Shown: one piece after another, positions 23,491 through 49,264 of the stretch
Numbering within the stretch: position 1 is the first letter of the stretch
Layout of the letters: every line of letters starts with the position of its first letter
From: a virus
Lineage: Duplodnaviria; Caudoviricetes
Direction: 5' to 3' (one strand)
Length of the DNA stretch: 64,000 nucleotides
Virus record (IMG/VR): IMGVR_UViG_3300014205_000006
Location: 37,278-101,277 of that record
The notes under the pieces: model-generated
What the model saw: only the letters and a program-made list of their open reading frames with translations
What the model was told of the DNA's origin: nothing
Database searches by the model: none
Position numbers and translations under genes: made by a program

Positions 23491-23943
23491 ATGGACGCAT
23501 CGCGCCTCGACCTCGCACGCTTCGCTCACGACATGGATGGCCTCGCCGCCATCAAGTTCCACGGCGACCACGACCAAGAGGATCACGGCAACCGGGCAGG
23601 CACGGCGACGGCGGAACGCTCCGCGCCGGGCCACCGTAAGCAGCCCCCTGATCGCGCTGAGCACCGCCCGAAGCAGAGGCGGCCAGTGCTGGAGAAGTCG
23701 GCAGGGCCGCGCGTCGGATACGAGGCATTCGGACAACCCAAGGTCGGCTTCCCCAAGATTGAAGTCGTGTGGGATGGCGATGAGGAAGATGAGAGGGACG
23801 AGGCCGGGCCTCGTTTCAAGATCAACCCCAAGCCGCCCGAGACTGAGGTGGACACCGAGCACCCCGGCCTGATCAAGCGCGCCCGCGCCGCCATCGGTCT
23901 CAACGAGGGCGACTGGCCGACCTATGCCCCTCAGCCGCGCTGA
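23491..23943 (+). CDS. FH-HDQ-tagged hypothetical protein
   Basis: AIKFHGDHDQEDHGN; directly upstream of terL. Confidence 0.65.
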   Translation: MDASRLDLARFAHDMDGLAAIKFHGDHDQEDHGNRAGTATAERSAPGHRKQPPDRAEHRPKQRRPVLEKSAGPRVGYEAFGQPKVGFPKIEVVWDGDEEDERDEAGPRFKINPKPPETEVDTEHPGLIKRARAAIGLNEGDWPTYAPQPR

Positions 23944-25564
23944 GCAACTTCACGCCCTGAAGGTCGAACGTGCCCGCCGCCCCGATGGGGCTGCCACTTT
24001 CGCTGAATTGATGCTCCGAGACCATCAAACGATGGCTCCGATCCACAATGCCGACATCCACCGCGAGTGGCACGACGCTGCGAACAACCACAAGTTCACG
24101 GTGATCGAGGCTCCGCGTGACCACGGCAAGACGGAGCAGATGGCGATTGCCCGCCCGATTTGGGAGTTGGGCATGAACCCGGAGTTGCGGATCAAGATCA
24201 TCGGCAACAACGATGAGAAGGCAGCTGAGCGCGTCCGCTCCATCCGCGAGAACATCGACAACAATGAAGCCGTCCACGAGGTGTTCCCTCACCTCAAGCC
24301 CAAGCGCGGACGCGAGTGGAACGACCACAAGATCACCGTGGAGCGCCGCTCCCTCTCGAAAGACCCGAGCATCGAGGCCAAGGGCATCCTCGCCGGTACG
24401 GTCGGTGGGCGCGGCGACCTTGAGTTGTTCGACGACCCGATTGACCTGCGCAACACCATCCTCAACCCGGCCTTCCGTCAACAGATCATCGACACCTTCG
24501 ACAACACGTGGCGGAACCTGCTGGAGCCGGACGGTCGCATCCAAGCGATCATGACGCCGTGGCACACGGCTGACCTCCTGAATCACATGAAGCGCCAGTC
24601 GGACTTCTTTGTGGTGACCCACAAGATCAACCTCGACATCGGCGATGAGATTCGCAGCGAGGTCACCGACACGCACATCATCCGTGAGGGCATCCTCTGG
24701 CCGCAGCACTGGCCGCGCGAGGCGCTGGAGGAACGTCGCCGGGCGAGCGTCCGAGCGTTCCAGCGCGGCTACGAGTTGCGCCCCATCTCTGATGAAGAGG
24801 TGATGTTCGGCAAGCAGATCATCCAGCACGCCATCCGCAATGACCTCCGGTGGCCCGTCGTGCACGTCCCGCACCGCCCCGTCTTCACAGGCGTTGACCT
24901 CGCCGCGAGCCTCGGCGGGAAGGGCGCGTTCACTGTCGTCTTCACGGCTGAGGTTGATGAGCGCGGGACGCGCATCCCCATCGACATCCGCCGGGCTCGG
25001 CAGCCGTTCCCGGTGACGATCAATGACATCCGTCAGACGTGGGACATCTACAAGCCCATGCTGATCGGCGTCGAGTCCAATGCGTATCAGGCGAGCGTCG
25101 TTCAACAGCTGGCGGAGTATGCCGCTCACATCCCCGTGGTGGGCCTCGCGACCGGCACGAACAAGATGGACTTGGACTTCGGCCTTCCCTCGATGCACCA
25201 GCAGTTCGTCAACGGCGGTTGGGCCATCCCCGCCGCCGATCACGCAGACGGCTGCGAGTGCCCGCGCTGCGCGTGGGTCGAGGAGTTGGAGTCATACCCG
25301 GCGAGCGCCTACAGCGACACTCTGATGGCGATGTGGATGTGCGAGCAGGTCGTGCGCAAGGGCTATGCGGGCGTGGACGAAGGCGCAGAGCGCCTGTTGG
25401 CGCTGACTCAGACCAGTCGCTTCCTCGACAAGTGGGGAGCGTCAGAGGGCGAGTCGCGCCGCGACTGGTCGCCGCCGGGCATGACGAGCGAGCCTCTGGC
25501 CGCGCCGGGCGTGAGCATCGTGTCGTCTGCCGACAGACCGTCAAGGTGGCGCGGAGCCGGTTGA
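23924..25564 (+). CDS. terL: terminase large subunit
   Basis: Walker A APRDHGKT, Walker B LFDDP, MTPWH, nuclease GVDLA, VESNAYQ, SDTLMA. Confidence 0.92.
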   Translation: MPLSRAEQLHALKVERARRPDGAATFAELMLRDHQTMAPIHNADIHREWHDAANNHKFTVIEAPRDHGKTEQMAIARPIWELGMNPELRIKIIGNNDEKAAERVRSIRENIDNNEAVHEVFPHLKPKRGREWNDHKITVERRSLSKDPSIEAKGILAGTVGGRGDLELFDDPIDLRNTILNPAFRQQIIDTFDNTWRNLLEPDGRIQAIMTPWHTADLLNHMKRQSDFFVVTHKINLDIGDEIRSEVTDTHIIREGILWPQHWPREALEERRRASVRAFQRGYELRPISDEEVMFGKQIIQHAIRNDLRWPVVHVPHRPVFTGVDLAASLGGKGAFTVVFTAEVDERGTRIPIDIRRARQPFPVTINDIRQTWDIYKPMLIGVESNAYQASVVQQLAEYAAHIPVVGLATGTNKMDLDFGLPSMHQQFVNGGWAIPAADHADGCECPRCAWVEELESYPASAYSDTLMAMWMCEQVVRKGYAGVDEGAERLLALTQTSRFLDKWGASEGESRRDWSPPGMTSEPLAAPGVSIVSSADRPSRWRGAG

Positions 25565-25570
25565 CGAGCC

Positions 25571-25630: not shown

Positions 25631-27295
25631 ATGGCGACCGGCGACGACAACGGCGCGAGCCCTTCCCTCACAGGTGGCCTTCCGGCGGTAGCGGACGCGG
25701 AGCGCGACACCGTCAGCCTCTCTGAGGTCGGCACCTCCGGCCTTCGGCGCTATGGCGGCATCATCCAAGAGGAGTTCCTGCCTGAACTCCGGGGCCTGCG
25801 TGGCGTCCGCGTCTTCCAAGAGATGCGCTGGAATGACCCCACTGTCGGCGGCATGATCCGCGCCACCAAGGACGCGATCCACTCTGTGAAGTGGGACGTG
25901 GAGGCAGACGGCGAGGAGGCAGTCGACAACGAGGCTGAAATCTTCCTCCGTCAGTGTATGGACGACATGTCCCACTCGTGGTGGGATATGGTCAATGAAG
26001 CGCTCTCCATGATCGCCTTCGGCTGGGCGTACCACGAGGTGGTCTACAAGGTTCGGCAGGGGCATAACCCGAGCGGCACTGACGCGTGGGGCCAGCCGCT
26101 TCCCAAGTCCAAGTTCGATGACCGTCGCATCGGTTGGCGCAAGATTGCCCTGCGCGGGCAAGAGACGCTCTACCGCTGGGACATCGACAACACTGGCGGC
26201 ATCCGGGCGATGCTCCAGTTTGACCCGGTCGCGGGCGGCGGCATCCGCACCATCCCTATTGAGCAGGCCCTCCTGTTCCGCACCGACCGTGAAAAGAACA
26301 ATCCCGAGGGCGTGTCGATGCTCCGGTGGGCGTACCGCCCTTGGTACTTCAAGAAGCAGTTGGAGGAGATTGAGGCCATCGGCATCGAGCGCGACTTGGT
26401 GGGCATGCCCGTCATGACGCTGCCTCAGGGCGCGACCGTCTCTGACCGCAACATCGCCCTCGACATGCTCCAGAAGTTGAAGAGTGACGAGTCCACCGGC
26501 CTCGTGCTCGTGCGCGGCATCGATGAGCGCCACGACTGGACATTCGGCCTGACGCAGTCGTCCGGCGCTCGGACGGTCAACACGCACCAGAGCATCGACC
26601 GCTACTCGGGCGAGATTGCGCTGGCGTTCCTCGCGCAGTTCCTCCGGCTCGGCGCGGCGGGCGGCGGCTCGTATGCCCTGAGCCGTGACCAAAAGGATTT
26701 CTTCTACCTCAGCATCACGTCCATCCTCGACTCCATCGAGGAGGTCATCAACAACTACCTCGTGGTCAAGTTGTTCGAGTTCAACGAGGTCGCCTTCAAG
26801 GGGCTCAAGAACCCGCCGAAGATCAAGCACGGCAAGGTCGGCCAGCGTGAGATGGTCAACTTCGTCAACGCGATCAAGTCGCTCGCCGACGCCGGGCTGC
26901 TCGGCCCGGTGGACTCTGACCTGCTCCAGTTCTTCCGCACGACCCTCGACCTGCCTGAGATCAGCGCCGATGAGATTGACGCGATGGACAAGGCGCGCGA
27001 GGAGCAGGGCCCCGCGCCGATGACGCCGGGCATCTCCCCGACCGCTGCGCTCCAAGCGGAGACTGCCGCTAAGGTCGCAGAGACCAAGCCGGACGGCCCC
27101 ATCAAGGAGACGGACAAGCACCCTGATTCGCCGCGCGAGCCGGGCGACGGGAACAACGGTCAAGCGGCGTCCGGCGGCGCGAAGGGCGACCAGCCGAGCG
27201 GCGACGGCAGCGGTCACGCCGGGAGCGGCGACCGCAAGATGGCAGAGCCCGTCGCCGCCGGAGGCATCCTGCGCAAGTGGCTCGCCCCGCGCTGA
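25631..27295 (+). CDS. portal protein (DUF935/Mu gp29-like)
   Basis: EEFLPELRG, FGWAYHEVVY, NNPEGVSMLR, IGIERDL.G.P, GSYALS; follows terL. Confidence 0.88.
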   Translation: MATGDDNGASPSLTGGLPAVADAERDTVSLSEVGTSGLRRYGGIIQEEFLPELRGLRGVRVFQEMRWNDPTVGGMIRATKDAIHSVKWDVEADGEEAVDNEAEIFLRQCMDDMSHSWWDMVNEALSMIAFGWAYHEVVYKVRQGHNPSGTDAWGQPLPKSKFDDRRIGWRKIALRGQETLYRWDIDNTGGIRAMLQFDPVAGGGIRTIPIEQALLFRTDREKNNPEGVSMLRWAYRPWYFKKQLEEIEAIGIERDLVGMPVMTLPQGATVSDRNIALDMLQKLKSDESTGLVLVRGIDERHDWTFGLTQSSGARTVNTHQSIDRYSGEIALAFLAQFLRLGAAGGGSYALSRDQKDFFYLSITSILDSIEEVINNYLVVKLFEFNEVAFKGLKNPPKIKHGKVGQREMVNFVNAIKSLADAGLLGPVDSDLLQFFRTTLDLPEISADEIDAMDKAREEQGPAPMTPGISPTAALQAETAAKVAETKPDGPIKETDKHPDSPREPGDGNNGQAASGGAKGDQPSGDGSGHAGSGDRKMAEPVAAGGILRKWLAPR

Positions 27296-27514: not shown

Positions 27515-28360
27515 ATGGCGCGAGTTGAGACCCCGTACAAGTTGGCGCACCGCCCGGAGCGGCTGAGCACGCAGTTCGCGCGCTCGTATTCCGGGCCTGT
27601 CCGGACGGCGATTCTCGACCACCAGGCAAGCATCGCTGCTGGCTTGAGAGCGTATCTCCGGAAACTGGGTAGCAAAGTGGCGGAGCATGGCGCGACGCCA
27701 CTCTCGGCACGTTCTATCATCGAGGCCCCGGAGACGGTCGAGGCGTTGCGGTTGTTCCTCACCGGCTCGCTCATCCCGCTCTACACGCTGGGACACGCCG
27801 AGGCGATGACCGGCCCGCGTCGGTTCGCGGAGCCGACGCCCGCCGAGATTCTCGCAGGGACGGCGAATCTACCGCCCGAGTTGACGCGCCGGTTCAGCCC
27901 GCTCGTGCTCAGCCGCATGACGCCCCTCCAGTTGCGGGCGCTCGCCGCGTTGTACGCGGACTTCGGCCCCATCAGCGCGGGCGTCGCGGCGGGCGTGAGC
28001 GACGGCGTGGCGGCGATCATCGGCAACGGCATCGCCGAGGGCTGGAGCCGGGCTCGCATGACGCGGGCGATCCAGACCGCGTTCTACAACATCAGCGAGG
28101 TCAGCGCCCGGCGCATCGCTCAGACCGAGACCATCCGGGCGACGGCGCAGGGCCGCGTCGAGGCGCTCCGCGGCAACCCTCTCACGCGCTGGAAGGAGTG
28201 GCAAGCCGCTCCGGACGCATGCGAGGATTGCGAGGCGATGGGCGGACAGGTCGTGGAGGTTGATGAGCCGTTCGTCTCGCCGAGCGGCGAGGAGTTCGAC
28301 ACGCCGCCCTTCCACCCGAACTGCCGATGTGGAGTCACAGGAAGTGTCGAGGGCCCCTGA
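27515..28360 (+). CDS. MuF/SPP1 gp7-like minor head protein (short form, no toxin extension)
   Basis: ARRIAQTE, KEW, CEDC, PPFHPNCRC. Confidence 0.88.
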   Translation: MARVETPYKLAHRPERLSTQFARSYSGPVRTAILDHQASIAAGLRAYLRKLGSKVAEHGATPLSARSIIEAPETVEALRLFLTGSLIPLYTLGHAEAMTGPRRFAEPTPAEILAGTANLPPELTRRFSPLVLSRMTPLQLRALAALYADFGPISAGVAAGVSDGVAAIIGNGIAEGWSRARMTRAIQTAFYNISEVSARRIAQTETIRATAQGRVEALRGNPLTRWKEWQAAPDACEDCEAMGGQVVEVDEPFVSPSGEEFDTPPFHPNCRCGVTGSVEGP

Positions 28361-28821
28361 TGGACGTGACGGCGAATCTGGATGTGCCCGCTTGGATCGA
28401 GGCGCTGCTTGACCCGGCCATGGCCGCCGAGGGTCTTGCCCTGCTGATGGATGCGGTCGGCACGGAGGTCGTGAAGGACATCGTGGAGCACACGCCGAGG
28501 CGCACCGGCTTCCTCGCCGGGGAGTGGTCGCACACGATGGACGGCATGGACGTCGTCATCCGCAACCCGACCGAGTATGCCGCATACGTCGAGGAGGACA
28601 CGAAGGCGCACGAGATTGCGGCGAGCGCCGCTCTCATCCTGCGCTGGTACGGGGCGACCACCGTGAGCGGCGTCGGCATCGAGGGCACGCAGCAGTTCGC
28701 CAAGAAGGTGCAGCACCCCGGCACCACCGGTCAACGGATGGTGCAGGGCGCGCTAGACCGGCTCCAAGAGCACTGCGACACGGCGAGTGCGGCCCTGATG
28801 CGACACTACGGCTTGGCCTGA
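28360..28821 (+). CDS. HK97 gp10-like virion morphogenesis protein
   Basis: TPRRTGFL...EYAAYVE..T.AH.I...KVQHPGT. Confidence 0.75.
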   Translation: MDVTANLDVPAWIEALLDPAMAAEGLALLMDAVGTEVVKDIVEHTPRRTGFLAGEWSHTMDGMDVVIRNPTEYAAYVEEDTKAHEIAASAALILRWYGATTVSGVGIEGTQQFAKKVQHPGTTGQRMVQGALDRLQEHCDTASAALMRHYGLA

Positions 28822-31800
28822 TCTGCAAACGGCGGGTCGCTGTCTCCCTCTACAAGGAGGGCAGCAGGGCCACGGCACTCGTCACAGGAACGACCGACAC
28901 CGTGATCGCAGGGCTCTACAGGGAGGGCAGGGGCGGGCTCCCAATAGGCGTCATGCGAGCCGGGAGTGCGGTTCGGGCACAGCCCGCCGTCTACGGGCGC
29001 GTACTCGCTGAACTTCGCGAGTTGGAACCCGCAGACCTTGCACCGATACCACGTCGGCGCGGGCGGTTCAGGGAGGGCAGGAGAGGCCGATGGGAGCAGG
29101 TCGCCGAGGGCGCGCATGGCGTCGGCGAGGCTCGTGTGCTGCGCGACTCTGAACCATCCGTTGCTCGCGGACACTTCGAGGACTCCGGGGCCGCGCTCGT
29201 TGATGCGGCCAAGCGGCTGCCCGCCGCGCTGGACGATCCAGATGCGCATCGAACCGTGCTTCGTCTCCTCGGCGATCAGGTCGCCGTTCTGCGTGATCTT
29301 CCCGTGTGGCAGGTCAGGGACGGTCATCGGGATTTCTCCATTCTCCGAACGGCCTCATGACAGTAGTCTGCGGACGGGTGGCCGTCATGAGCGAGATGCT
29401 CTGTCCATTCGAGTCTGCGGATGGTGTCGCCGCAGTTGGCGCAGAACCCGGCGCTGATCCATCGCGGCTCGCGGTACACCCATTGCTCACGACAGAACAG
29501 ACGGTACGCGCCGAACGCTATGAGCAGGAGCCCTGACGGGATGATCGTCGCGACCGCCATCGGGTCGATGGTCGTCCCGTAGGCGAGGTGCGAGTACAGG
29601 GCGGTTGCCGATACGCCGAGCATGCCGAAGCCGTACACGAACAGCGCCATGCTCCACGGCGGGCCGTATCTCCGGATGGTCACTCGGGACGGAGCGTTGA
29701 GTCCGCGCGGGCGATTTTGATTGACCATTTGGGGCCGTCCTTGCTGCTGTGGCCGCGCTTCCGACCGATTGGCTTGACCTGGATGCTCGTCGGCGTGACG
29801 CGTAGCACGACCACCCGGTTGTCCTCTGTCACGTGGAGCCCGACGCGCTTGACGAGCACCTGTCCGACTCGGTAGGCGGTCATGGATTTGCCCGAGCGGC
29901 GAGGATGCGCCGTTCCAGTTCATCGCACGCGTCGATGAAGAACCGAGCCTCAGCGTACTTGTCGAGGGTCGTGGAGTTGAGTTGCGGGCGCTTCTCCTCG
30001 CGGAGGGCCCGGATGATCTCAAGCGCGTCAGGCATGGGCGGCCTCCGGCACGTAGCCAACCGCGCCCTCCACGAGGTAGTACGGCATCCCGCCGGGGAGC
30101 GCGCTCCACATCGAGCGGTCGAACATCGACTTGGCGAGCCCGAGGGCGACGCCGAGCGTGAACAACTTCTCCATGCTGGGGTGCTCGCCCCACTGCGGCC
30201 CGCGCCCGTCCGTGTCGAACGGGGCGCACTCGGCTGCCATGAGGAATGACCACCCGCCCGCGAAGTTCGGGTGTAGCATCGACAGCCACTCGGCGACCTC
30301 CGCGCGGTGCCCCTCCAACCGCTCGGCGTGGAAGGCGTACTGCGCGACGATGCCGTCGGCGACGACACCATCCATGCGAGCGCCGTTGCGCATCGCTGTG
30401 GCCTCGGCATCGGTGAACAGGCAGTCCTTGAACACCTCGCCGAGGGCGGTTGCATCGATCATGACGTTGCTCCTTCAGGCGGCGAGCCCGGCGGGCACGC
30501 CTCATGCTTTGCGTTCAGGTACTCGATGTACTTGAGGAAGGCATCGATGCTCACCGGGGCTGGCGATGGCTCGTCCACGCCGCAGCGGTTGCAGTGCGCG
30601 AACGGGAGCCGGAGCACGAGCCACGGCGCTTCGGGCGAGGCGACGATGCCATCGATGCGCATCCCGCTGAGTTGCCCGCCAGCGTCATACAGACCCGCCT
30701 CTGTGAGGACTTCCAACACGGCGTCCTCGGCGGAGGCGGGCGTCCATGGCGAGTTCGGCTCCATCTCGAACTTCACGACCACTTGCATCAGATTGCCCCT
30801 TCGGATTCATCGATGGCGCTCCGGAGGGCGACGGCGACCCGCTTCAGTCGGTCGATGTGCCGTCGCGGCGAGCCGTTCTCAGCGGCGGCGAGCGTCGCGT
30901 TCACGATGACCGTCAGAGCCGCCTCTGCGTCCTCGCGGTCGATGACGGCAGTCACGTTCGTCACAGGGCCCTCCACCACTCGTTGTGCCACTGCGGGTTG
31001 GCGCGACCGTAGGAGTAGGCCCACCACAGCCAGCCGAAGCCCCAACCGTACTGAGCCCACTTGCGCTCGGGTTCGATGCGGAACCAGCGTGGCTTCCAGA
31101 AGATGGGCGGGCCCCATGCCAACTTCCCGGCAGAGCGCTTCTCATGGTTGAGCGGGAATGTGACCTCGCCCTTCCAGAGGAGGCTCCACGACGGGTAGAT
31201 GTCCAGCCCCTTCAGCGCGCCGATGGTGACGGGGAACTTGATCTGCTTCACAGCGGTCGCCGTTCCTGATCGCCGCACCGGGCGCAGTCGCGGTAGGCAT
31301 CGGGGTCGCCTCGCAGCCACATGTCGCCGGGGCTCCACAACACCCAGCCGCTCCAAGCGTGCAGCCCGAAGGCGCAGCGGAGCGACTCGACGCCGAGGAG
31401 CGTCCTGATGCGGTCGAGCATCAGCACACCTCGCAGTTCTCATCGGTGCAGGGCGACCATGGATGGCGCCCCACGGTGAAGTACAGTCCGCCGTACGCGC
31501 CCTTGTGGACCAGCGCGTCCTCAGGCTCGCCGCAGACCTCGCCCGATGGCAGGACGGCGGTGCACAGCCCGTTGCTCGCCATGCTTATGCCTCCACCAGA
31601 ATCCCCGGCGCGCCCGGCGCGGGCCGGTACCAGATGCCGGTGATCTCAGAGCCACTTCCCTGCGGCCCTACGCGCTCGGCGTTGCTGCGGTGGTACTCGC
31701 CGTCAGGCATGCGCAGGGACGGCGGCCACGTGTCGCCCCAGCCGAGGTAGGCGCGCTTGGTCGGCGGCAGGTCAACCCCTGCGTCCAGAGCGCGGGCCCG

Positions 31801-32060
31801 GCCCTCGTACTCCACGTCCATGTCGCGGGCCTCGTTGGCCGTCATGGCTACATCGTCTCCATCACGTACAGGTCGTGGACCTGCACCGAGCGGTTGCGCT
31901 TCAGCCACGTCTGGCCGATGGCCTCGATCAGGTCGCCCTTGACGTAGGTCACGGCGGTGATCTCGGCGTACTGGGCCAGCGCCTCCGCGCGGGCGGCGAC
32001 GGTCGCCGCCTCGGTCAGTACAGTCGTCCCGGTCGTGGTCGCGGTCGTCATCCTGTCCAT
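28806..32060 (-). other. leftward array of small early/accessory ORFs (e.g. 28806-29327, membrane protein 29324-29683, 30028-30462, 30459-30788)
   Basis: Coupled minus-strand ORFs downstream of the VWA gene; one has two hydrophobic helices. Confidence 0.6.
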
Positions 32061-32144
32061 CCCCTCCTGCGCCCTCGCGGGCCCGTCCAACGAGTCAATT
32101 ATACCTCGTATCTCGTTGAAACGGGCCATCGTGCGGGGAGAATC

Positions 32145-34472: not shown

Positions 34473-34497
34473 CCCTGCGTCCCTTCCCTACGAGGCG

Positions 34498-39821: not shown

Positions 39822-39830
39822 GACTCGCTC

Positions 39831-40337
39831 ATGCCTGGCCACCTGTTCCGCAAGTTGATCGATGACGTCGCCGCTGTGAAGTTTCACGGCGAGCACGATC
39901 AGTCAGATCACAACCCTCACGGCAGCGGCCCCGCCGGTGGCGCGACTGACAAGGAGGGCTACCGCGAGTACAGGCGTCACGCCATCGCCGAGGACGGGAA
40001 GGCTGTGGAGCGGGCAGACCTCGCCGTCCGCCGCAAGCACGGCACGACCCACCCTGATGACCCGCCCGAGCCGAAGTTGGGCATGAAGGTCAAGTCCGGC
40101 GACACCGAGGGCGAGGTTGTCGGCATCGGCTCGAAGGGCACGGTGATGCTCAAGGTCGCGGGCGGCGATGTGAAGGAGGTCTCAGACCTCTCGCTCCGCA
40201 AGATTGACGACAAGCCTCAGCGACCGCTGGCCAAGTGGGAGCAGCGTGCCGCCGACCCGAAGAATGAGGTGTTCGGCATGTCGCCTGATAGACCTGAGAA
40301 GCCGGCCAAGAGCATCTTCGCGCGAAAGTCACGTTGA
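39831..40337 (+). CDS. FH-HDQ-tagged protein with KOW/SH3-like beta domain
   Basis: AVKFHGEHDQSDHN; LGMKVK...GEVVGI...V.LK. Confidence 0.65.
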   Translation: MPGHLFRKLIDDVAAVKFHGEHDQSDHNPHGSGPAGGATDKEGYREYRRHAIAEDGKAVERADLAVRRKHGTTHPDDPPEPKLGMKVKSGDTEGEVVGIGSKGTVMLKVAGGDVKEVSDLSLRKIDDKPQRPLAKWEQRAADPKNEVFGMSPDRPEKPAKSIFARKSR

Positions 40338-40519: not shown

Positions 40520-41451
40520 TCACACGACTCGGCGCACCTGTCCCCGCTCCGCCCGAGTGGCCTGTGTACCAGTTCCACGGCGACCATGATCAGTCGACAC
40601 ACGGCAATCGTGACGGCGGAAGTGCCGGGCCGTCCGAGCCCGCGCCCTCGCTCCGCAGTTGGCGAGTCAGCGACGGCGACACCCTCAAGCGCCACAAGCC
40701 TGACGGCAAGAACTGGACGCGCGAGCGGAAGGCGCTTCACGAGAGGCTGGTCAAGAAGGCGATCAGCAAGGTCGCGCCCGCCGAGGGCGGCAAGCCGACG
40801 CTCTACATGATGGGCGGCGGGCCCGCTGCCGGCAAGTCCGACCTCGTCAAGAACAACCTCGTGGACCACCCGGACGCCGCTCACTCGGTGAGGGTTGACC
40901 CGGACGAGATCAAGGGCGAACTGCCCGAGTACCGCCAACTGGTCGCCGTGGGCAACCTTGAGGCGGCGGGCATCGTCCACGAGGAGTCGTCGCACGTGTC
41001 CAAACGCGTCATCGATGAGGCGCTCAAGTCCGGTCGTCACACCGTGTACGACTCGACCGGCGACGGCTCCATCGAGAGTCTGTCGGGCAAGATTGCGGCG
41101 GCGCGAGCGGCGGGCGCCAAGCGCATCGAGGCGGACTATGTGACCGTCCCGACCGAGATGGCCGTTCAGCGCGCGCTCGCCCGCGCCAAGAACCCCGAGA
41201 GCAGTTCGTTCGGGCGACTGCCCGACCTCAAGATTGTGCGGGAGACGCATCGCAAGGTGAGCGAGGTCTTGCCACAGGCGATCCAGCGCGGCTTGTTCGA
41301 CAAGGTCAAGGTCTGGGAGTCCACCGGGCGCACGCCGCGTCTCATCGCCGAGGCGCGCGGCGCTCGGATCACAGTCCACGACCAAGCCGCTTGGAAGCGG
41401 TTTCTGGCGAAGGCCGATGAGGACGACGGCGACGGGACGGTGTACGACTGA
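40516..41451 (+). CDS. FH-HDQ-tagged zeta-toxin-family P-loop kinase
   Basis: YQFHGDHDQSTHGN; MGGGPAAGKS, VDPDEIK, VHEESS, YDST, GR.P. Confidence 0.82.
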   Translation: MITRLGAPVPAPPEWPVYQFHGDHDQSTHGNRDGGSAGPSEPAPSLRSWRVSDGDTLKRHKPDGKNWTRERKALHERLVKKAISKVAPAEGGKPTLYMMGGGPAAGKSDLVKNNLVDHPDAAHSVRVDPDEIKGELPEYRQLVAVGNLEAAGIVHEESSHVSKRVIDEALKSGRHTVYDSTGDGSIESLSGKIAAARAAGAKRIEADYVTVPTEMAVQRALARAKNPESSSFGRLPDLKIVRETHRKVSEVLPQAIQRGLFDKVKVWESTGRTPRLIAEARGARITVHDQAAWKRFLAKADEDDGDGTVYD

Positions 41452-41627: not shown

Positions 41628-41631
41628 CATC

Positions 41632-42369
41632 ATGCGTCCGACCTCTCGCTCACTCAAGGCCGGCACGCCGCACAGCGCTCCGCGCCCGGCGTCCGCCCGG
41701 CCCAAGGCCGAGCCGCCCAAGCACTTCGCTGGCGACGTCACGGCGAGCCGCTTCACGTCGCACGAGGTCATCGACCCGGAGACGCTGAAGGCCCCGGCGC
41801 GCGACAAGCGCCTCAGCGACCTCGACGCTGTGAACGCTGTGAAGTTCCACGGCGACCACGATCAGAGCGACCACAACCCTCACAAGGGCGGTGGCGGCGG
41901 TGTCGGCGGCGGCGAGGCGGCAGCCCGTGACGGCGTGTCAAAGGAGATTCAAGCCGAGCGCTGGGGCAAGCCCGGCGAAGCGCCGTGGGACTCCAAGCAG
42001 GCCAAGGCTGCTCTGACGACCATCCGGTCTGAGAAGGCGAATTTGATGCGCGCGGCGATGGACCACAAGTCCGAACGCCTCGCCAAGATCAGTCCGGGTC
42101 GTGTCGAGCGTGGGCTGGACTTCCTCGTCACCTCTGTCAACGCAGAGGCGGAGTTTGGAGAGAAGCCGTCTGCTGACGAGGTCAAGCGGGTGTTGAGCGA
42201 TGTGCGCAAGTCGCTCCCCGAGGCGCACCACGCCAAGTTCGATGCGTTCGCCGGGAAGGTCAACAAGGCCCTCGGTATCGGCACCTCAGCGATTGAAGCG
42301 GCCTTCAAGAAGCCGCTGTCCGGCAAGGATGACGCCAAGGAGCGCATGAACCATCCGGGGCTCTGGTAG
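41632..42369 (+). CDS. FH-HDQ-tagged helical protein
   Basis: NAVKFHGDHDQSDHNPH followed by a Gly linker. Confidence 0.65.
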   Translation: MRPTSRSLKAGTPHSAPRPASARPKAEPPKHFAGDVTASRFTSHEVIDPETLKAPARDKRLSDLDAVNAVKFHGDHDQSDHNPHKGGGGGVGGGEAAARDGVSKEIQAERWGKPGEAPWDSKQAKAALTTIRSEKANLMRAAMDHKSERLAKISPGRVERGLDFLVTSVNAEAEFGEKPSADEVKRVLSDVRKSLPEAHHAKFDAFAGKVNKALGIGTSAIEAAFKKPLSGKDDAKERMNHPGLW

Positions 42370-43132: not shown

Positions 43133-44947
43133 GTGCCTGCTCACGCGACGCCGACTGTTCTCACATCCGGATTCACAAACGGATATGCCTTCAACTACAC
43201 GTCGGCATCCATGACGCCCGCCGGTGGAGGCGTGGTGTTCGCGGTGGTGCACCACTCGAACCTTGACGCCGACCCGACGCTCTCAGGGCTCGGTCTGGTT
43301 TGGACAAAGGTTGCCAGCCTCAACTTCTTCTTCAACTTCGTTCACATCTCGCTCTACAAGGGCATCGGCACGCCGACGCCGGGCACGGTGACGATCACCT
43401 ATGCCGCGACGCCGTCATCCTGCGGATGGCAGTTCATCGAGGCAGTCGGGGCGACCGACGTGGTACAGTCAGCGACACAGACCGGCTCCGTCACATACCC
43501 GACTGTCGCTCACAAGTTCCCTCCGGCGACGGTCGCGCTTGCGGCATTCGCCGAACCCACGAATGGGGTGATTGCGGCCGTCACAGGCTATGGATCGTCA
43601 GCGTTCACAAAAGGAGCCGGGTACACGCAATTTGCGACAACGGGTGCAGCGGGAGCGTTCGGCGTTTGCTCTGCCGAATGGTATGGCAGCGCTGATGTCG
43701 CTCCCGGCTGGGCTGCGCAATCAGGCCTGTACGATGGCTATGCGGATGGCTGGGGAGGTCTGGCCGCTGAAATCGCGTACCCGACTGCCACCGCTCCGAC
43801 CGCAACGACCGAGGCGGCGACCAGCGTCACAGACACGACGGCGACTCTGAACGGCACGGTCAACGCGAACCTCGCCGAGGCGACGGTGTCATATGAGATC
43901 AGCCTCAACAGCGACATGAGCGGCGCCACGACGGTCGCCGCGACTCCGGGCGCCGCCGGGGCAGAGGCTGGCGTTGTTGCCTCGACCGGGGCGGCGACGG
44001 GCCTCACGCCGGGCACGCTGTACTACCATCGCGTGAAGGCCGTCAACAGCGTCGGGACTTCCTATGGCGCCACAGAGTCGTTCACGACGGCGCTTGTCGC
44101 GCCGCTCGTCACGGCCATCGCCTCCAACCTCGCCGGGACGCGAGTTGAGATCACATTCGACAAGGCGATGGCAGACCCGACCGGGAAGCACGCTCAGTTC
44201 ACGTACTCCCTCGATGGCGTGGCGGGGACGTTCAGCGCCGCCGCCCTCGACCCCGACAGCACCTCTGTGATCGTCCTCACCGTGGTCGGCCAAATCGTCG
44301 GCGCAGACCACGACCCGCCCCTCGCGCTGACGGTGTCGTACACGGCTGGTACGGTGCTCGCGGCGGACGGCGGCGTGCTGGCGACGTTCAGCGGGACGGC
44401 GGCGACGAATGGCTCTGTCGGCGGGCCCCTCATGGGCGGGACGGCTGATGGCGATACCTACATCCGCGGCACCGCCGACGGTGACACAAGTGTGAGCGGT
44501 ATCGTAAACGGCGCGACCGTGATCGGTGGCACAGTCGATTCAGGAGGCGCTGAGATGATCTATGTGACGGCGGTGGACTCGGCGGGCGAGGACATCGTGG
44601 TCGTCTCGGGAAGCCCTGCGCTTGCCGACAACAAGATCACCAAGAACGGCGCGACCTACAACCTCACTGGCAAGACTGTCACGGCCAAGATTCGCGCCAA
44701 GGACGCGCCGAACACGGCCATCGACGCGAGCCTTGAGACCATCGCCGTCACGAACGGCGGCGGGACGTACACCGAGGCGCAGGGCGGCGTGACCTTCCAG
44801 ATCACGAGCGCGATGCTCGTTCTGCTCCAGCCGCCGAGCGGCAAGGCCCTCGACGTGCTGAAGCGGTACTTCATCCAGTACAACGTCACGACTGACGACT
44901 TCCAACCTGCGGAGGTCATCGAGTTCGCTGTGCGGAGGGGGTTGTAG
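43133..44947 (+). CDS. Ala/Thr/Gly-rich virion surface protein with FnIII/Ig-like domain
   Basis: TATLNGTVN...GLTPGTLYYHRVKAVNSVG FnIII signature. Confidence 0.7.
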   Translation: MPAHATPTVLTSGFTNGYAFNYTSASMTPAGGGVVFAVVHHSNLDADPTLSGLGLVWTKVASLNFFFNFVHISLYKGIGTPTPGTVTITYAATPSSCGWQFIEAVGATDVVQSATQTGSVTYPTVAHKFPPATVALAAFAEPTNGVIAAVTGYGSSAFTKGAGYTQFATTGAAGAFGVCSAEWYGSADVAPGWAAQSGLYDGYADGWGGLAAEIAYPTATAPTATTEAATSVTDTTATLNGTVNANLAEATVSYEISLNSDMSGATTVAATPGAAGAEAGVVASTGAATGLTPGTLYYHRVKAVNSVGTSYGATESFTTALVAPLVTAIASNLAGTRVEITFDKAMADPTGKHAQFTYSLDGVAGTFSAAALDPDSTSVIVLTVVGQIVGADHDPPLALTVSYTAGTVLAADGGVLATFSGTAATNGSVGGPLMGGTADGDTYIRGTADGDTSVSGIVNGATVIGGTVDSGGAEMIYVTAVDSAGEDIVVVSGSPALADNKITKNGATYNLTGKTVTAKIRAKDAPNTAIDASLETIAVTNGGGTYTEAQGGVTFQITSAMLVLLQPPSGKALDVLKRYFIQYNVTTDDFQPAEVIEFAVRRGL

Positions 44948-45063: not shown

Positions 45064-47037
45064 ATGACCGCGCTCCACGACGCCCTCCGCGACTCGATGC
45101 GCTTCCACGGTGATCACGATCAGAGTTCTCACGGGAACCGTGGTGCCAGTACTGGCGGCGAGCCGCGCCACGACAAGGATGGCGCGACGAACATCCAGAA
45201 GATGCTGAAGATGGTAGCGCAGACGTCGGGCCGCGAGCCCGGACGCCCCAAGTCGTCCGCTGCGATCATCCTCGACCACGGACGCGAGTACAAGCCGGGC
45301 CCTGACACATACAAGGGGCCGCGCGGCCAGCAGGGCGCTTGCTACATGAATGCCGGGCGGATGGTGCTGAACTCCTCGGCGGATGAGGGTCTGACCTACG
45401 TCGAGGGCTACATGACGGTGTACGGCATCCCGATTGAGCACGCTTGGGTCGTGGACAAGTCCGGCGCGGTGATCGACCCGACCATCAAGCCCGACGACAA
45501 CGGCCACGCCTACTTCGGTGTGCCATTCACGACTGACTACGTGCGCGAGACGGCGCTGCGGACGGGCATGTGGGGCATCATCAGCGGGATGAGCAACCGC
45601 GAGTTGTTCACAGAGTCAGACGCGCAGACGCGCTCCCACGTCAAGAAGTTCAACGAGGGCGGGCCGGTCGCCGCCGGACTCGCTGTGCTCGCGCTCGACA
45701 CCGGGCGCGTCCTGATGCTCCGCCGGGCATTCAACCCGCACGACGGCTCTGGCGAGGTTGACGAGGCGGCTGGCACGTGGGAGTTCCCCGGCGGCCACGT
45801 TGACGACGGCGAGGATGCGTTTGACGCCGCCCGGCGCGAGTGGGAGGAGGAAGTTGGCCTCACGCTCCCGCCCGGCGCGATTCACGGCGAGTGGACGTCG
45901 CCGAATGGCGTGTACCAAGGCTACGTCTACGCAATCCGCGCCGAGGCCGATGTCCCGTTCAGCAACGACCGTGACGAGGTCACGAACCCTGACGACCCCG
46001 ATGGCGATGGGCGCGAGTCGCTTGCGTGGTGGGAGCCCAACGCGATGCGGACGGGCGAGGGGCTCAGGCGCGAGTTGGCGGGCGACATCGCCCTCGTCTG
46101 CGATGCCATCGGCGAGCGCCCGACCCTCCACGAGGCGCTCCGGGCGGCGCTCCGCTTCCACCTGCCAGGCGAGCACGACCAAGCCGACCACGGCCAGCGG
46201 AACGGCTGGACGGCCTCCAACCGCGAGCGCAAGGAGCGCGAGGCTGCCAAGAAGGCCGGGGCAACGCCCAAGTTGACGAGCAAGGGCATCATCGACACAT
46301 TCATGACGGCACGCTCGTACTCCTCGCCGACGCCCGAGGCGCGCGAGGCATCCCTCAAACTGGCCAAGCAGTTGTACGAGGCCGAAGGCGTCAAGGTTGA
46401 AATTCGCTCCATCACCAACCAAGGCTCTGCGCCGTTTGTCGAGATGGAGATTTGGCCGGATGGCCCGCGCGGCCCGCGTGACGAACCCCTCGCCTCGCTT
46501 GTGCGCGAGTTCCGTGAAGGCGGCGACGTTCACAACTCGTACTTCAGGATCAACCGGGGCGACATGCAGGGCGGAGGCCTCGCCGCTCGCATCGCCGCGC
46601 ACTCTGAGCGCCAGTTGTTCGAGGCGGGCTTCAAGACCCTCAGCCTCAACGCGAACATCGATGTGGGCAAGTACGCATGGGCCAAGCAGGGCTTCGACTT
46701 CGCCGACCCGCACGTGGCAACTGAAAAGCGCGAGCGCCTTGTCGAGTTCGTCGCCAAGGAGACGGGCCTCAACATCGGGCAGGCAGAGGCGAAGGTCGCA
46801 CAATTGGCGCGGGCCAACGGCGGTCTGAAGCATGCCTGGGAGTTCGCGGCGCTTGACGACGGCAAGAAGTACGAGTGGAGCAGCAATAGCAAGAGGGGCG
46901 ACGGGCACCTGGGCAAGGCCTTCATGCTCGCCGACTGGTCTTGGGATGGCGTGAAGCAACTCGACCCTGACTCCACGTCGCAGAAGGTCTCACGCGCCTA
47001 CATCGAGGCCACGGCCAAGAAGGGCGGCAAGAAGTGA
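45064..47037 (+). CDS. polyprotein: tag - papain/transglutaminase-like domain - NUDIX - tag - GNAT-like domain
   Basis: GACYMNA..YVEG..EHAW..IDPT (Cys-His-Asp); WEFPGGHVDDGEDAFDAARREWEEEVG (Nudix box); QGGG..GKYAWAKQGF; two FH-HDQ tags. Confidence 0.8.
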   Translation: MTALHDALRDSMRFHGDHDQSSHGNRGASTGGEPRHDKDGATNIQKMLKMVAQTSGREPGRPKSSAAIILDHGREYKPGPDTYKGPRGQQGACYMNAGRMVLNSSADEGLTYVEGYMTVYGIPIEHAWVVDKSGAVIDPTIKPDDNGHAYFGVPFTTDYVRETALRTGMWGIISGMSNRELFTESDAQTRSHVKKFNEGGPVAAGLAVLALDTGRVLMLRRAFNPHDGSGEVDEAAGTWEFPGGHVDDGEDAFDAARREWEEEVGLTLPPGAIHGEWTSPNGVYQGYVYAIRAEADVPFSNDRDEVTNPDDPDGDGRESLAWWEPNAMRTGEGLRRELAGDIALVCDAIGERPTLHEALRAALRFHLPGEHDQADHGQRNGWTASNRERKEREAAKKAGATPKLTSKGIIDTFMTARSYSSPTPEAREASLKLAKQLYEAEGVKVEIRSITNQGSAPFVEMEIWPDGPRGPRDEPLASLVREFREGGDVHNSYFRINRGDMQGGGLAARIAAHSERQLFEAGFKTLSLNANIDVGKYAWAKQGFDFADPHVATEKRERLVEFVAKETGLNIGQAEAKVAQLARANGGLKHAWEFAALDDGKKYEWSSNSKRGDGHLGKAFMLADWSWDGVKQLDPDSTSQKVSRAYIEATAKKGGKK

Positions 47038-47702
47038 TCCCTGTGATCCTGCCCAAGGACGCGCCCCATGAGGGCTCTGACGAGGACTTCTGGCTGCCAG
47101 ACGAGGATGACGACGCCGAGTGGCTTGACGCGATGAAGCGCATCGACCTCTCCGAGCCGGACGCGGGTGACGTCCACGTTGACGGCGTCCTCAAGTTCGA
47201 GCCCGCCGACGATGAGGATGAACTCATCGACCGTGATGACGACGGGCACCGTCCGCGTCTCCATGAGCGACTCCTCGCCGCGCTCCGCCCGCTTCGTGAG
47301 CGGCTTCGCGACGCGATGGGCTTTCACGCAGAGCACGATCAAGAGGATCACGGCAACCGCGATGGCGGCGGCAAGGAAGGCGAGAAGGGTGGCGGGCGTC
47401 GCGGGCGAGGACGTTGGACCGACCTCGGCGGCGGGCCGAACCGCAACCCTGAGTTCGAGCAGCCGCGCCGCTTCCGCATCAACCGTCACGCGAAGGGGCG
47501 CATGGTTGAGCGCCGCGTGTCAGAGGAAGCCGTCGAGTACGTGCTGAAGAACTACGGCATGAAGATTCCCGCCGCGCCCATCCCCGGCGCGCCGCGCTCT
47601 GAAATTCGCCTCGGCAACTTCCGTGGCCGTCCGCTGGCCGTGTACGTCGAGGAGGATTCCAACCCGCCGTACGTGAAGACGGTCGCTTGGAGAGACGAAT
47701 GA
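47034..47702 (+). CDS. acidic N-domain - tag - DUF4258 (RelE/BrnT-fold) RNase-like toxin
   Basis: HAKGRMVERRVSEEAVEYVL...LAVYVE...VKTV. Confidence 0.75.
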   Translation: MIPVILPKDAPHEGSDEDFWLPDEDDDAEWLDAMKRIDLSEPDAGDVHVDGVLKFEPADDEDELIDRDDDGHRPRLHERLLAALRPLRERLRDAMGFHAEHDQEDHGNRDGGGKEGEKGGGRRGRGRWTDLGGGPNRNPEFEQPRRFRINRHAKGRMVERRVSEEAVEYVLKNYGMKIPAAPIPGAPRSEIRLGNFRGRPLAVYVEEDSNPPYVKTVAWRDE

Positions 47703-49264
47703 TCGAACTGGAGTATGACGCCGAGGATGACATCCTGTATGTCCGGCTCGGGTCGGGCGCGGTCGCGCGCTCGCGCGCGTTCGGCGACTCCCGCATCGTG
47801 GACTTCAACGCGGGCGGCCAGCCCATCGGCGTCGAGTTCATCGGCGCGAGTGCGGGCGTTGACCTGAGCGGCATCCCCGAGGGCGAGCGCATCCGGCGTG
47901 AGGTCGAGGACTTGGCTCTGGAGGAGTCATCGCGGGAGTTCTGCGAAGGCCTCTTGGAGGCGATGAACTTTCACGGCGACCACGACCAGTCCGATCACGG
48001 CAGTTGGGCCGACGGCTCGGCTGACTTCGAGCAGACGGTTGCGGGCGAGCGCGGCAAGAGCAAGTGGTTCAACCCTCTCAAGGACACGCCCGCCGTCCGC
48101 GCGGCCAAGACAGCCGCGTTTGAGGCGGCAGTTGCGCGCTGGGGCAAGACCGATGACTGGACGAAGGGCGGCTACATCCTGAAGGATGGCTCGCAGATTC
48201 AGTTGCGGGGCAACGCCAACGGCAGCACACACGATGAGTTCGCGCGGGCCGCGATGCCGCAGGAGTTGTACCCTGAGGCGTGGACTGAATACGACGGCAA
48301 GCGTGACTATGACTTCGGCCCCGGCCTCACGACGCTCCAACAAGACACCGGCATCATCCGCATCCTGCCCGAGACGGACGGCCAGATGCAGGGTGGCATC
48401 GGCAAGGCGGTCGTGACAGTGAACCTGCCGCCGGGCGGGGCGTCAGACTCGCAGGTGAACCTGCTGGAGTCCATCCTTGGACAGACAGGGCGATTGAGCA
48501 TCACCACTCCGCAGGACGAGTGGTATGACATCACACAGCCCAACGAGTTGCGCCGGGCGAATGCCATCATCAAGGGTGAGCGCGGCCCGCTGACGGACAT
48601 GGAGCGCGCTCGTCTGCGCTTCCACGAGGAGCACGACCAGAGCGAGCACGGCAACTGGGCGTCAGACCTCGCGAGCGGCAAGGGTGGCGTGAAGTCAGAG
48701 TTGAAGTTGGCGCCCGTCCGCCAGCGGGCCTTCAAGGGCGAGCAGGTCTCCATCCCCGACAGGTTCAAACTCAGCAAGTCCGAGACGAGCAAGTTGACCG
48801 AGCAAATCGCCGCCGCCTACGCCGAGCGCGCCGGGCTCCGCAACGCGCGGCTCCTCGGCCACGACGGCAAGAACAACTACCCGGTCGATGTGGTCGCCGG
48901 GCGGACGCTGTACGAGGTCAAGGGCGGGCAGGTGTCGAACAGCGGCGGCGCTCAGCAGTTCCGCATCACCGTCGATCAGAACTGGCAGGCAGAGGCCCGC
49001 GACAAGGCGCGAGCGAAGGGGCCCGAGGCGCTCCGCCGCTTCAATGCCCGCGCGCAGCGCGACGCTCTGGCCCGCAAGGAGAAGGCGGTGGCCGCAGTCT
49101 CTGAGCAAGCGGGCAAGCAGTTCTCTGGCGGGACGATTGGCGTGATCATCAACCCCGTCACCAAGACGGCGGACGTCCACGTGTTCGAGGGATTCCACCA
49201 GCGCATCGGTTGGCGGTCTGAGGAGGCTGAGAGTGGCTATGTCGGAACCTTCCGCTACCGATGA
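47699..49264 (+). CDS. DUF2283 antitoxin - tag - unknown domain - tag - PD-(D/E)XK nuclease-like domain
   Basis: YDAEDDILYVRL...IVDF...PIGVEFIGAS; YPVDVV...LYEVKGG; two tags. Confidence 0.75.
   Translation: MIELEYDAEDDILYVRLGSGAVARSRAFGDSRIVDFNAGGQPIGVEFIGASAGVDLSGIPEGERIRREVEDLALEESSREFCEGLLEAMNFHGDHDQSDHGSWADGSADFEQTVAGERGKSKWFNPLKDTPAVRAAKTAAFEAAVARWGKTDDWTKGGYILKDGSQIQLRGNANGSTHDEFARAAMPQELYPEAWTEYDGKRDYDFGPGLTTLQQDTGIIRILPETDGQMQGGIGKAVVTVNLPPGGASDSQVNLLESILGQTGRLSITTPQDEWYDITQPNELRRANAIIKGERGPLTDMERARLRFHEEHDQSEHGNWASDLASGKGGVKSELKLAPVRQRAFKGEQVSIPDRFKLSKSETSKLTEQIAAAYAERAGLRNARLLGHDGKNNYPVDVVAGRTLYEVKGGQVSNSGGAQQFRITVDQNWQAEARDKARAKGPEALRRFNARAQRDALARKEKAVAAVSEQAGKQFSGGTIGVIINPVTKTADVHVFEGFHQRIGWRSEEAESGYVGTFRYR

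What the first reader, a model, noticed from the sequence alone, without database searches (positions are those of the whole stretch)
23554..48652. A repeated F-H-x-[DE]-HDQ-x-x-H-[GN] tag marks nine cargo domains in seven head-region proteins: candidate capsid-loading and processing signal for a polymorphic effector system
Seen: copies at 23554 (KFHGDHDQEDHG), 39879 (KFHGEHDQSDHN), 40570 (QFHGDHDQSTHG), 41842 (KFHGDHDQSDHN), 45100 (RFHGDHDQSSHG), 46153 (RFHLPGEHDQADHG), 47319 (GFHAEHDQEDHG), 47966 (NFHGDHDQSDHG) and 48617 (RFHEEHDQSEHG). Codons differ between copies, so conservation is at the peptide level. The tag is usually followed by a Gly-rich linker and then an unrelated domain (zeta kinase, Cys-His-Asp enzyme, GNAT, DUF4258, PD-(D/E)XK, unknowns). 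All copies lie between the gene before terL and the prohead protease. Known parallels: T4 internal proteins carry a cleavable capsid-targeting sequence, and MuF proteins can carry C-terminal toxins. Here MuF is toxin-free. Inference: the tag is a portable address that loads stand-alone effectors into the head for injection, and its His/Asp residues may bind metal or DNA.
Basis: partly seen in the sequence, partly recalled or inferred. Interest (0 to 1): 0.92.

Follow-up and report, generated by a model that had tools for sequence, protein, structure and literature searches.

The report
His-rich cargo tag, Phe-type variant
A 101-kb uncultured phage puts the same short histidine-rich peptide in front of nine enzyme or toxin modules encoded among its head genes; the peptide is widespread but apparently undescribed, and the residue just before it changes with the type of head protease, so it is probably a "load and cut" label for proteins carried in the capsid.

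Summary
Nine copies of [KR]-F-H-G-[DE]-H-D-Q-x-x-H-[GN] lie at the stated coordinates, against 0.01 expected by chance. The rest of the 101-kb genome has none.

The motif is the local form of a widespread tag, consensus K-HGDHDQSxHGNWAxG. It occurs in 764 protein clusters, with up to 20 copies per protein. It heads each roughly 215-residue module of phage "polyvalent" proteins and sits next to portal, MuF and protease genes. I found no paper that describes it. This scan has noted the same tag on other genomes.

The residue before the first His is uniform within a protein (227 of 229) but differs between phages: K, R, F/Y, L or E.
- K goes with S78_2 proteases (60 loci).
- F/Y goes with Mu-gpI-type proteases (this window and three other loci).
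- Two proteases are fused directly to a tag of their own type.
- A tag-less NUDIX junction also has F here, where 65 of 97 homologues have K.

Best reading (about 0.5): a portable cargo label whose conserved part is a handle, cut after Phe by the prohead protease.

Cleavage, packaging and metal binding are all untested. A P-side motif scan of head proteins gave nothing beyond chance.

The parts
23554..23589 (+). tag copy 1 (KF|HGDHDQEDHG), aa 22-33 of the 150-aa protein 23491-23943 just upstream of terL
39879..39914 (+). tag copy 2 (KF|HGEHDQSDHN), N-terminus of 168-aa protein 39831-40337 (no family found)
40570..40605 (+). tag copy 3 (QF|HGDHDQSTHG), N-terminus of zeta-toxin kinase protein 40516-41451
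   Evidence: PF06414 7e-23; phrog_16619 minor head protein
41842..41877 (+). tag copy 4 (KF|HGDHDQSDHN) in protein 41518/41632-42369 (likely start 41632)
45100..45135 (+). tag copy 5 (RF|HGDHDQSSHG), N-terminus of the 657-aa three-module protein 45064-47037
45643..45663 (+). tag-less junction VKKF|NEGG in front of the NUDIX domain; F sits where 65 of 97 homologues have K
46153..46194 (+). tag copy 6, long form (RF|HLPGEHDQADHG), before the GNAT-like C-terminal module
47319..47354 (+). tag copy 7 (GF|HAEHDQEDHG) in 47034-47702, before the DUF4258 toxin-type domain
47966..48001 (+). tag copy 8 (NF|HGDHDQSDHG) in 47687-49264, after the N-terminal DUF2283 domain
48617..48652 (+). tag copy 9 (RF|HEEHDQSEHG) before the last module of 47687-49264 (D..ExK motif)
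49501..50901 (+). prohead protease-scaffold fusion, Mu gpI type; proposed reader and cutter of the tag; carries no tag itself
   Evidence: PF10123, 69.7 bits; phrog_328, phrog_976
25631..27295 (+). portal protein (Portal_Mu)
   Evidence: PF06074, 1.7e-36
27515..28360 (+). MuF head-morphogenesis protein without a toxin domain
   Evidence: PF04233, 4.7e-13, ends at residue 274 of 281
23924..25564 (+). large terminase
   Evidence: phrog_38, 2.5e-60
51452..52429 (+). major capsid protein, no delta domain; N-terminus MPQPDVGDVHVNALL

Best explanation
The motif is this phage's version of a widespread, undescribed cargo tag. Each unit has four parts: a short amphipathic leader, a specificity residue (here Phe), a conserved His/Asp-rich handle (HG[DE]HDQxxHG[NS][WR]) and a Gly-rich linker. 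The unit stands in front of every enzyme or toxin module destined for the capsid.

I propose that the Mu-gpI-type prohead protease-scaffold protein (49501-50901) recognises the unit inside the prohead and cuts after the Phe. That cut would remove N-terminal leaders and pre-tag domains (the acidic region of the 47034 protein, the DUF2283 antitoxin-like domain of the 47687 protein). It would also split multi-module proteins into single enzymes that begin HGDHDQ and leave with the DNA.

Shown here: the tag, its spread, its place in head modules, its place at module boundaries, the genome-wide uniformity of the residue before the handle, and the association of that residue with protease family.

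Inferred: recognition by the protease, the exact scissile bond, packaging and injection. What reads the conserved handle is unknown; the protease fold, the scaffold or a metal ion are candidates.
For: 1. Nine copies, chance expectation 0.01, none elsewhere in the genome.

2. Spread and layout:
- 764 clusters at E<=1e-3 among 1.84 billion representatives, up to 20 copies per protein.
- At least 120 IMG/VR stretches carry KHGDHDQxxHG.
- The first tag lies within 60 aa of the N-terminus in 170 of 236 proteins; median spacing is 215 aa.

3. Context. The order portal-MuF-[tagged genes]-protease-scaffold-MCP recurs in L001, L003 and L004. 98 of 120 IMG/VR loci hold a head-gene homologue.

4. Tags separate cargo from the portal (P0056, the L001 portal, L140), from MuF (P0011) and from proteases.

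5. The class of the residue before the first His is uniform in 227 of 229 multi-tag proteins (shuffles: mean 170, maximum 180). F and Y mix with each other but never with K. The P'-side variants GNW, GNR and NPH are shared across classes, so this is not simple recent duplication.

6. Link to protease family:
- K-type loci carry S78_2 proteases (60 loci).
- The window (F), L135 (F), L001 (Y) and L144 (F/Y) carry Mu-gpI-type proteases. The evidence is PF10123 for the window, phrog_976 for the window, L001 and L144, and a shared alignment with invariant His and Ser columns.
- The window's portal and MCP are clear homologues of the K-type ones (E 1e-100 and 1e-64), but its protease is not.

7. Two proteases are fused directly to a tag of their own type: the L135 Mu-type domain followed by SSKF|HGDHDQ, and the P0028 S78_2 domain followed by IEK|HGDHDQ.

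8. A second, tag-less junction shows the same switch. Seven residues before the NUDIX AAGLAV motif, 65 of 97 homologues have K (mostly portal, MuF or protease fusions) and the window has F.
Against: - No cleavage, packaging or virion data exist for any tag-bearing phage that I could find.
- The protease-family association rests on few independent lineages: one large K clade and about two aromatic clades. The proteases of the R-, E- and L-type phages and of the F-type phage L145/L146 were not identified.
- The window's own protease, MCP, portal and MuF carry no tag. A PSSM of the tags' P5-P1 residues finds nothing in head proteins beyond shuffles (p 0.1-0.9).
- A 15-residue conserved P' side is unusual for a plain protease site, so the handle must do something else that remains unexplained.
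- In AlphaFold2 the tag tethered to the L135 protease is disordered (pLDDT below 35). This is uninformative rather than negative.
Confidence: 0.5

Rival explanations
1. The tag is a docking (address) peptide only. It binds scaffold, capsid interior, portal or MuF and loads cargo, but is not cut. The genome-specific residue is then a contact residue for a phage-specific receptor.
For: - Single-domain proteins need no separation, yet they carry an N-terminal tag.
- The conserved stretch is long.
- The scaffold is replaced together with the protease in the window, so the covariation fits a scaffold receptor equally well.
Against: - Tags recur between every module of proteins already fused to portal, MuF or protease, where one address, or none, would do.
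- Tags sit exactly at the end of protease domains.
- The variable residue falls into classes typical of protease P1 pockets (K, R, F/Y, L, E).
- No structural partner family is shared by all tag-bearing loci.
Confidence: 0.2
2. The tag is a release site used after injection, or a self-cleaving element. It would be cut by a host protease or autocatalytically, perhaps with a metal held by the His and Asp residues. This would free the enzymes in the newly infected cell rather than in the prohead.
For: - Three invariant His and one invariant Asp suggest metal binding.
- Iyer et al. 2017 propose processing of polyvalent proteins inside the recipient cell as one option (PMC5512222).
Against: - The residue before the handle follows the phage's own protease family in related head lineages.
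- A self-cleaving chemistry would not need a genome-specific residue class.
- Ser at +3 (an S-x-H pattern) is only 76% conserved.
Confidence: 0.12
3. The tag is a neutral or structural inter-domain linker that persists as a recombination joint for shuffling effector cassettes, with no role in capsid loading or processing.
For: - Cassettes of leader, tag and domain are clearly shuffled among phages.
- Related cargo in L135 uses a different leader, FYSEDQPRDESGRWG.
Against: - Conservation is at the peptide level with divergent codons.
- Linkers do not keep six invariant residues across 764 clusters.
- N-terminal copies join nothing.
- The tag has a tight link to head modules.
Confidence: 0.08

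Closest known systems
Capsid targeting sequence (CTS) of phage T4 internal proteins IPI-III and Alt, removed by the gp21 prohead protease (Rao & Black 2010, PMC3012670; own knowledge for the cleavage rule L/I-x-E)
   Same: A short portable peptide shared by otherwise unrelated, fast-evolving anti-host proteins. It lies at the N-terminus of stand-alone cargo and is proposed to couple loading into the prohead with removal by the head protease.
   Different: - No sequence likeness to the T4 CTS.
- The conserved part lies on the side that would stay on the cargo.
- The tag is also internal, repeated up to 20 times per polypeptide.
- It works with HK97-type heads that have Mu-gpI, S78_2 or other proteases, not the T4 S77 protease.
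- Nothing here is experimentally shown.
Phage polyvalent proteins (Iyer, Burroughs, Anand, de Souza, Aravind 2017, PMC5512222)
   Same: The same domain repertoire (ART, zeta kinase, GNAT, 2H, NUDIX-type, MuF and portal fusions), the same virion-gene context, and the same proposal that these proteins are packaged and injected.
   Different: That paper proposes zincin-like MPTase domains as the processing agent. In the text I searched it does not mention this inter-module tag. Here many cargoes are stand-alone genes that carry the tag.
MuF polymorphic toxins (Jamet et al. 2017, PMC5576092)
   Same: Toxin or effector domains encoded beside portal and MuF, thought to ride in the capsid.
   Different: There the toxin is covalently fused to MuF. 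Here MuF is bare and the effectors carry the tag instead. The paper mentions no linker or cleavage motif.
Maturation cleavage by HK97-fold prohead proteases (HK97 gp4 cutting gp5 after Lys103; own knowledge)
   Same: The head protease trims proteins inside the prohead, and Lys at P1 matches the majority K-type tags.
   Different: Known substrates are capsid, scaffold and portal proteins, not arrays of effector modules. A P1 switch to Phe or Tyr with a Mu-gpI-type protease has not, to my knowledge, been described.

Membership tests
HDQ-type His-rich cargo tag (undescribed; defined here by profile A2) | Match to the profile x-H-G-[DE]-H-D-Q-x-x-H-G with invariant H, HDQ, H | tested here: met
   Nine hits at E 1e-17 to 1e-20; window proteins recovered in the database searches
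HDQ-type His-rich cargo tag (undescribed; defined here by profile A2) | Stands at the N-terminus or between modules of effector-type proteins encoded in a head module | tested here: met
   the same layout in L001, L003 and L004
HDQ-type His-rich cargo tag (undescribed; defined here by profile A2) | Lys before the first His (majority form) | tested here: not met
   The window has Phe in 9 of 9 copies, whereas K makes up 576 of 656 tags elsewhere. The window is therefore an F-type variant.
T4-type capsid targeting sequence | N-terminal only, about 10-19 residues, similar to the T4 CTS consensus, ending in L/I-x-E | tested here: not met
   Four of nine copies are internal; there is no sequence likeness; the residue before the handle is F, not E
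T4-type capsid targeting sequence | Removed by the prohead protease, and sufficient to package a foreign protein | not testable with these tools
   Needs virion proteomics and reporter fusions
Polyvalent proteins (Iyer et al. 2017) | Two or more effector-type domains in one polypeptide, encoded with virion genes | tested here: met
   45064-47037 has an unknown module, NUDIX and a GNAT-like module; 47687-49264 has DUF2283 plus two modules. The other five tagged proteins are single-module solo forms.
MuF polymorphic toxins (Jamet et al. 2017) | N-terminal MuF domain fused to a C-terminal toxin | tested here: not met
   MuF is 281 aa and the Pfam match ends at residue 274, leaving no extra domain
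Mu gpI-type prohead protease (PF10123), for the proposed reader 49501-50901 | Pfam match above the gathering score; conserved His and Ser columns; C-terminal scaffold part | tested here: met
   69.7 bits against a cut-off of 25.2; phrog_328 and phrog_976 head maturation protease; invariant H165 and S208 in alignment A3; the relative L135 folds like herpesvirus assemblin (weak, E 0.02)

The most novel reading that the evidence does not exclude
Tailed phages with HK97-type heads share a two-part 'load and cut' code. One part is a conserved His/Asp-rich handle, read by a feature common to prohead proteases or scaffolds. The other is a single preceding residue tuned to each protease family's pocket (K, R, F/Y, L, E). 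Any protein given leader, residue and handle would then be packed into the capsid, trimmed and injected. Exchanging the protease would force a genome-wide switch of that residue, as seen here (K to F at nine tags and one tag-less junction).
Probability: 0.35. Interest if true: 0.85.

Novelty: new variant of a known kind. Interest (0 to 1): 0.7.

Why it matters
How phages other than T4 choose which proteins to carry in the capsid is largely unknown. This matters because carried proteins act first in infection, for example against host defences or to take over the host.

A short tag present in hundreds of phage lineages would provide:
- a way to read the packaged effector set directly from sequence;
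- a testable rule linking each cargo to its head protease;
- possibly a handle for loading chosen proteins into phage capsids in laboratory strains.

The Phe-type variant in this window is a natural experiment. Its portal and capsid are the same as in the Lys-type phages, its protease is different, and every tag has switched.

Tried and rejected
- AlphaFold2 of the L135 protease with its tethered tag folded the protease well and left the tag disordered. This says nothing either way.
- A single-sequence fold of the last module of 47687-49264 was too poor (pLDDT 55) to test the PD-(D/E)XK claim.
- Cut-site matches seen by eye did not beat shuffled sequences in a PSSM scan (p 0.14-0.69) and are not used as evidence. 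These were KVY|H after the L001 protease domain, RFQVR|L in the L125 protease-scaffold, DKAEF|M in the L146 capsid protein, and KF|H in the window's scaffold part.
- The exact F-type pattern has no match in IMG/VR. Non-K patterns are rare there (9 stretches, mostly not real tags). The metagenome scan for F/Y types gave only 4 real loci.
- tblastn of one tag against GenBank phages found nothing usable, so no cultured phage with virion data was identified.
- Proteases of the E-type (L142, P0232 contig), L-type, R-type (L125, 462 aa, no Pfam family) and F-type L145/L146 phages could not be identified.
- MuF or portal as a universal partner could not be shown: no Pfam hits in the L002/L125 and L145 proteins.
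- Ni(II)-type S-x-H hydrolysis and an ATCUN-type copper site after cleavage were considered and dropped. Ser at +3 is only 76% conserved, and the long-form tags break the spacing.


Full report
**What is there**

The window is the right-hand 64 kb of a complete 101,277-bp IMG/VR virus record with terminal repeats, 65.8% G+C.

Translation of the + strand shows nine copies of [KRQGN]-F-H-G/A/E-[DE]-H-D-Q-x-x-H-[GN] at exactly the positions given. One of them is a long form, F-H-L-P-G-E-H-D-Q. The evidence that this is not chance:
- A degenerate DNA pattern for the core finds 8 copies where 0.01 is expected.
- A profile of the nine finds nine strong hits and nothing else in the whole genome.
- Synonymous positions differ between copies.

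The genes are as follows:

| Coordinates | Gene or protein | Tag position |
|---|---|---|
| 23491-23943 | 150-aa protein | tagged at N-terminus |
| 23924-25564 | large terminase | none |
| 25631-27295 | portal (Portal_Mu) | none |
| 27515-28360 | MuF, no toxin domain | none |
| about 28360-39830 | about 11 kb of other genes, partly on the minus strand | none |
| 39831-40337 | 168-aa protein | aa 22 |
| 40516-41451 | zeta-toxin kinase | aa 24 |
| 41632-42369 | protein of unknown family | aa 76 |
| 43133-44947 | fn3 protein | none |
| 45064-47037 | unknown module + NUDIX + GNAT-like module | aa 18 and 371 |
| 47034-47702 | acidic region + DUF4258 | aa 101 |
| 47687-49264 | DUF2283 + two modules | aa 99 and 316 |
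| 49501-50901 | Mu-gpI-type protease-scaffold fusion | none |
| 50990-51385 | cement-like protein | none |
| 51452-52429 | major capsid protein | none |

**The tag elsewhere**

- A profile search of 5.8 billion proteins returned 309 hits. These include giant proteins with up to eight copies, each copy in front of an ADP-ribosyltransferase, zeta kinase, GNAT or unknown module. Some are in one chain with MuF, a portal or a protease.
- An exhaustive profile search of 1.84 billion cluster representatives gave 764 clusters at E<=1e-3, with up to 20 copies in a 7,059-residue protein.
- The general consensus is [VS]-L-K-H-G-D-H-D-Q-S-x-H-G-N-W-A-x-G.
- The first copy lies within 60 residues of the N-terminus in 170 of 236 proteins. 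The median spacing is 215 residues. Glycine is enriched after the tag.
- In IMG/VR the K-type DNA pattern hits at least 120 stretches. Of these, 98 also hold a homologue of the window's portal, MuF, cement or capsid protein, or of the K-type protease or scaffold.
- Four contigs read in full show the same order: portal, MuF, tagged genes, protease, scaffold, capsid.

**The residue before the handle**

In the window the residue before the first His is Phe in all nine copies, including the long form. Elsewhere it is Lys in 576 of 656 tags. Whole proteins and contigs use another class consistently:

| Class | Examples |
|---|---|
| Tyr | L001 |
| Phe, or Phe/Tyr mixed | L143, L144, L145, P0012, P0065 |
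| Arg | L002/L125, P0240 |
| Leu | P0008 |
| Glu | P0167, P0232 |

The class is uniform in 227 of 229 multi-tag proteins. Label shuffles give a mean of 170 and never more than 180.

The variants on the other side of the tag (GNW, GNR, NPH) occur in several classes, and several occur together in this window. The uniformity is therefore not just recent copying of one tag.

**Link to the protease**

- The K-type loci carry an S78_2 (XkdF-type) protease (60 loci) and never a Mu-type one.
- The window's portal and capsid protein are clear homologues of the K-type ones (E 1e-100 and 1e-64), but its protease is of another family. It matches PF10123 and phrog_976.
- The proteases of the Tyr/Phe-type phages L001 and L144 hit the same phrog_976. 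They align with the window's protease, with His and Ser columns invariant.
- In the metagenome locus L135, a Mu-type protease domain is followed within about 15 residues by a full F-type tag, then a scaffold part.
- In P0028, an S78_2 domain is followed directly by a K-type tag.
- A model of the L135 protease domain is confident and resembles herpesvirus assemblin, but only weakly.
- A second kind of junction shows the same switch. The NUDIX module of the 45064 protein has 119 homologues, most of them fused to portal, MuF or S78-type proteases in actinobacterial (pro)phages. Seven residues before the conserved AAGLAV, 65 of 97 homologues have Lys (typically R-K|A-A-G). The window has Phe (V-K-K-F|N-E-G-G).

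**Reading**

The simplest account is that the residue before the handle is the P1 residue of a cut made by the phage's own prohead protease, and that the protease family sets which residue is used.

Tags on proteins already fused to portal, MuF or protease argue that separation of modules is part of the function. Tags at the N-terminus of single-domain proteins argue that recognition or loading is part of it too, as with the T4 capsid targeting sequence.

A cut after Phe in this phage would have three consequences:
- It would remove 14-26-residue leaders.
- It would remove the acidic pre-tag region of the DUF4258 protein and the DUF2283 domain of the next protein.
- It would separate the modules of the two polyproteins.

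**Limits**

- Nothing has been shown experimentally.
- The association rests on one large K clade and about two aromatic clades.
- The proteases of the R, E and L types and of L145/L146 were not found.
- The window's head proteins carry no tag. A PSSM of the P5-P1 residues finds no site in head proteins beyond chance, so the cut-site look-alikes that I saw by eye are not evidence.
- The long conserved handle is not explained by a protease site alone. Its partner (protease fold, scaffold or metal) is unknown.

**Novelty**

- The motif strings occur in no relevant paper of the library.
- The polyvalent-protein paper and the MuF-toxin paper do not mention such a linker in the text I searched.
- Earlier notes of this scan describe the same tag on other genomes. 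One states that the residue before it follows the protease type. I re-tested that here from an independent starting point, and it held.
- This window adds a Phe-type example with a Mu-gpI-type protease and the tag-less NUDIX junction.
- The closest known system is the T4 CTS with gp21 cleavage. The tag is not a member of that family (no likeness, internal copies, different protease) but probably works in a related way.

Noticed in passing
window 51461-51496 and 47157-47192: The capsid protein's N-terminus (PDVGDVHVNALL) recurs almost exactly (PDAGDVHVDGVL) in the pre-tag region of the DUF4258 protein. The same S/D-V-H-V-D motif forms the C-terminal tail of all K-type S78_2 proteases and the N-terminus of the protease homologue P0122. 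K-type capsid proteins start MPQP..SVHVDAILTN. This may be a second portable element that mimics the capsid N-arm to dock proteins in the prohead.
   Followed up: partly
L135:3849-5360 (minus strand): A relative with an F-type tag on its protease puts a different leader, [RK]-F-Y-S-E-D-Q-P-R-D-E-S-G-R-W-G-E-G-G, twice in a cargo protein. That protein's modules (the unknown 'C..H..D' module and a zeta kinase) are homologous to the window's. More than one tag family therefore serves the same cargo, again after [RK]-F.
   Followed up: partly
window 47034-47702 and 47687-49264: A DUF4258 (toxin-type) domain ends one protein, and a DUF2283 (its usual antitoxin partner) starts the overlapping next protein, ahead of that protein's first tag. 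A cut at the tag would detach the antitoxin-like domain.
   Followed up: partly
window 45673-46050 (NUDIX module): This NUDIX domain has 119 homologues at 40-58% identity. They are mostly fused to portal plus MuF (about 1,000-1,100 aa, including Streptomyces and Kitasatospora genome records) or to S78 or S78_2 proteases. Only one of them has an HDQ tag. Their junction is a conserved W-R-D-F-x-F...A-H-R-L-N..G-R..V-R-K|A-A-G leader.
   Followed up: partly
window 28806-34487 (minus strand) and 38838-39821: Two things interrupt the head module between MuF and the tagged genes. One is a minus-strand block that includes a 775-aa VWA-domain protein. The other is a GDP-mannose 4,6-dehydratase gene placed directly before the first tagged gene of the main cluster.
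   Followed up: no
window 60665-60690 and 61425-61450: Two adjacent genes start M/V-P-K-F-H-[GA]-K. This is the same K-F-H triplet as the tags but without the HDQ handle. It is probably a pair of paralogous tail proteins and a coincidence.
   Followed up: no
window 43133-44947: A 604-aa fn3-containing protein (weak PHROG match to minor tail protein) sits untagged in the middle of the tagged gene cluster.
   Followed up: no
P0125 (database protein, 7,059 aa): The largest tag carrier found: 20 tag copies in one polypeptide.
   Followed up: no
P0167 / L142:10001-22258: Glu-type tags read V-x-E|H, the pattern that T4-type prohead proteases cut (own knowledge). No protease gene could be found in the 32 kb available.
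   Followed up: partly
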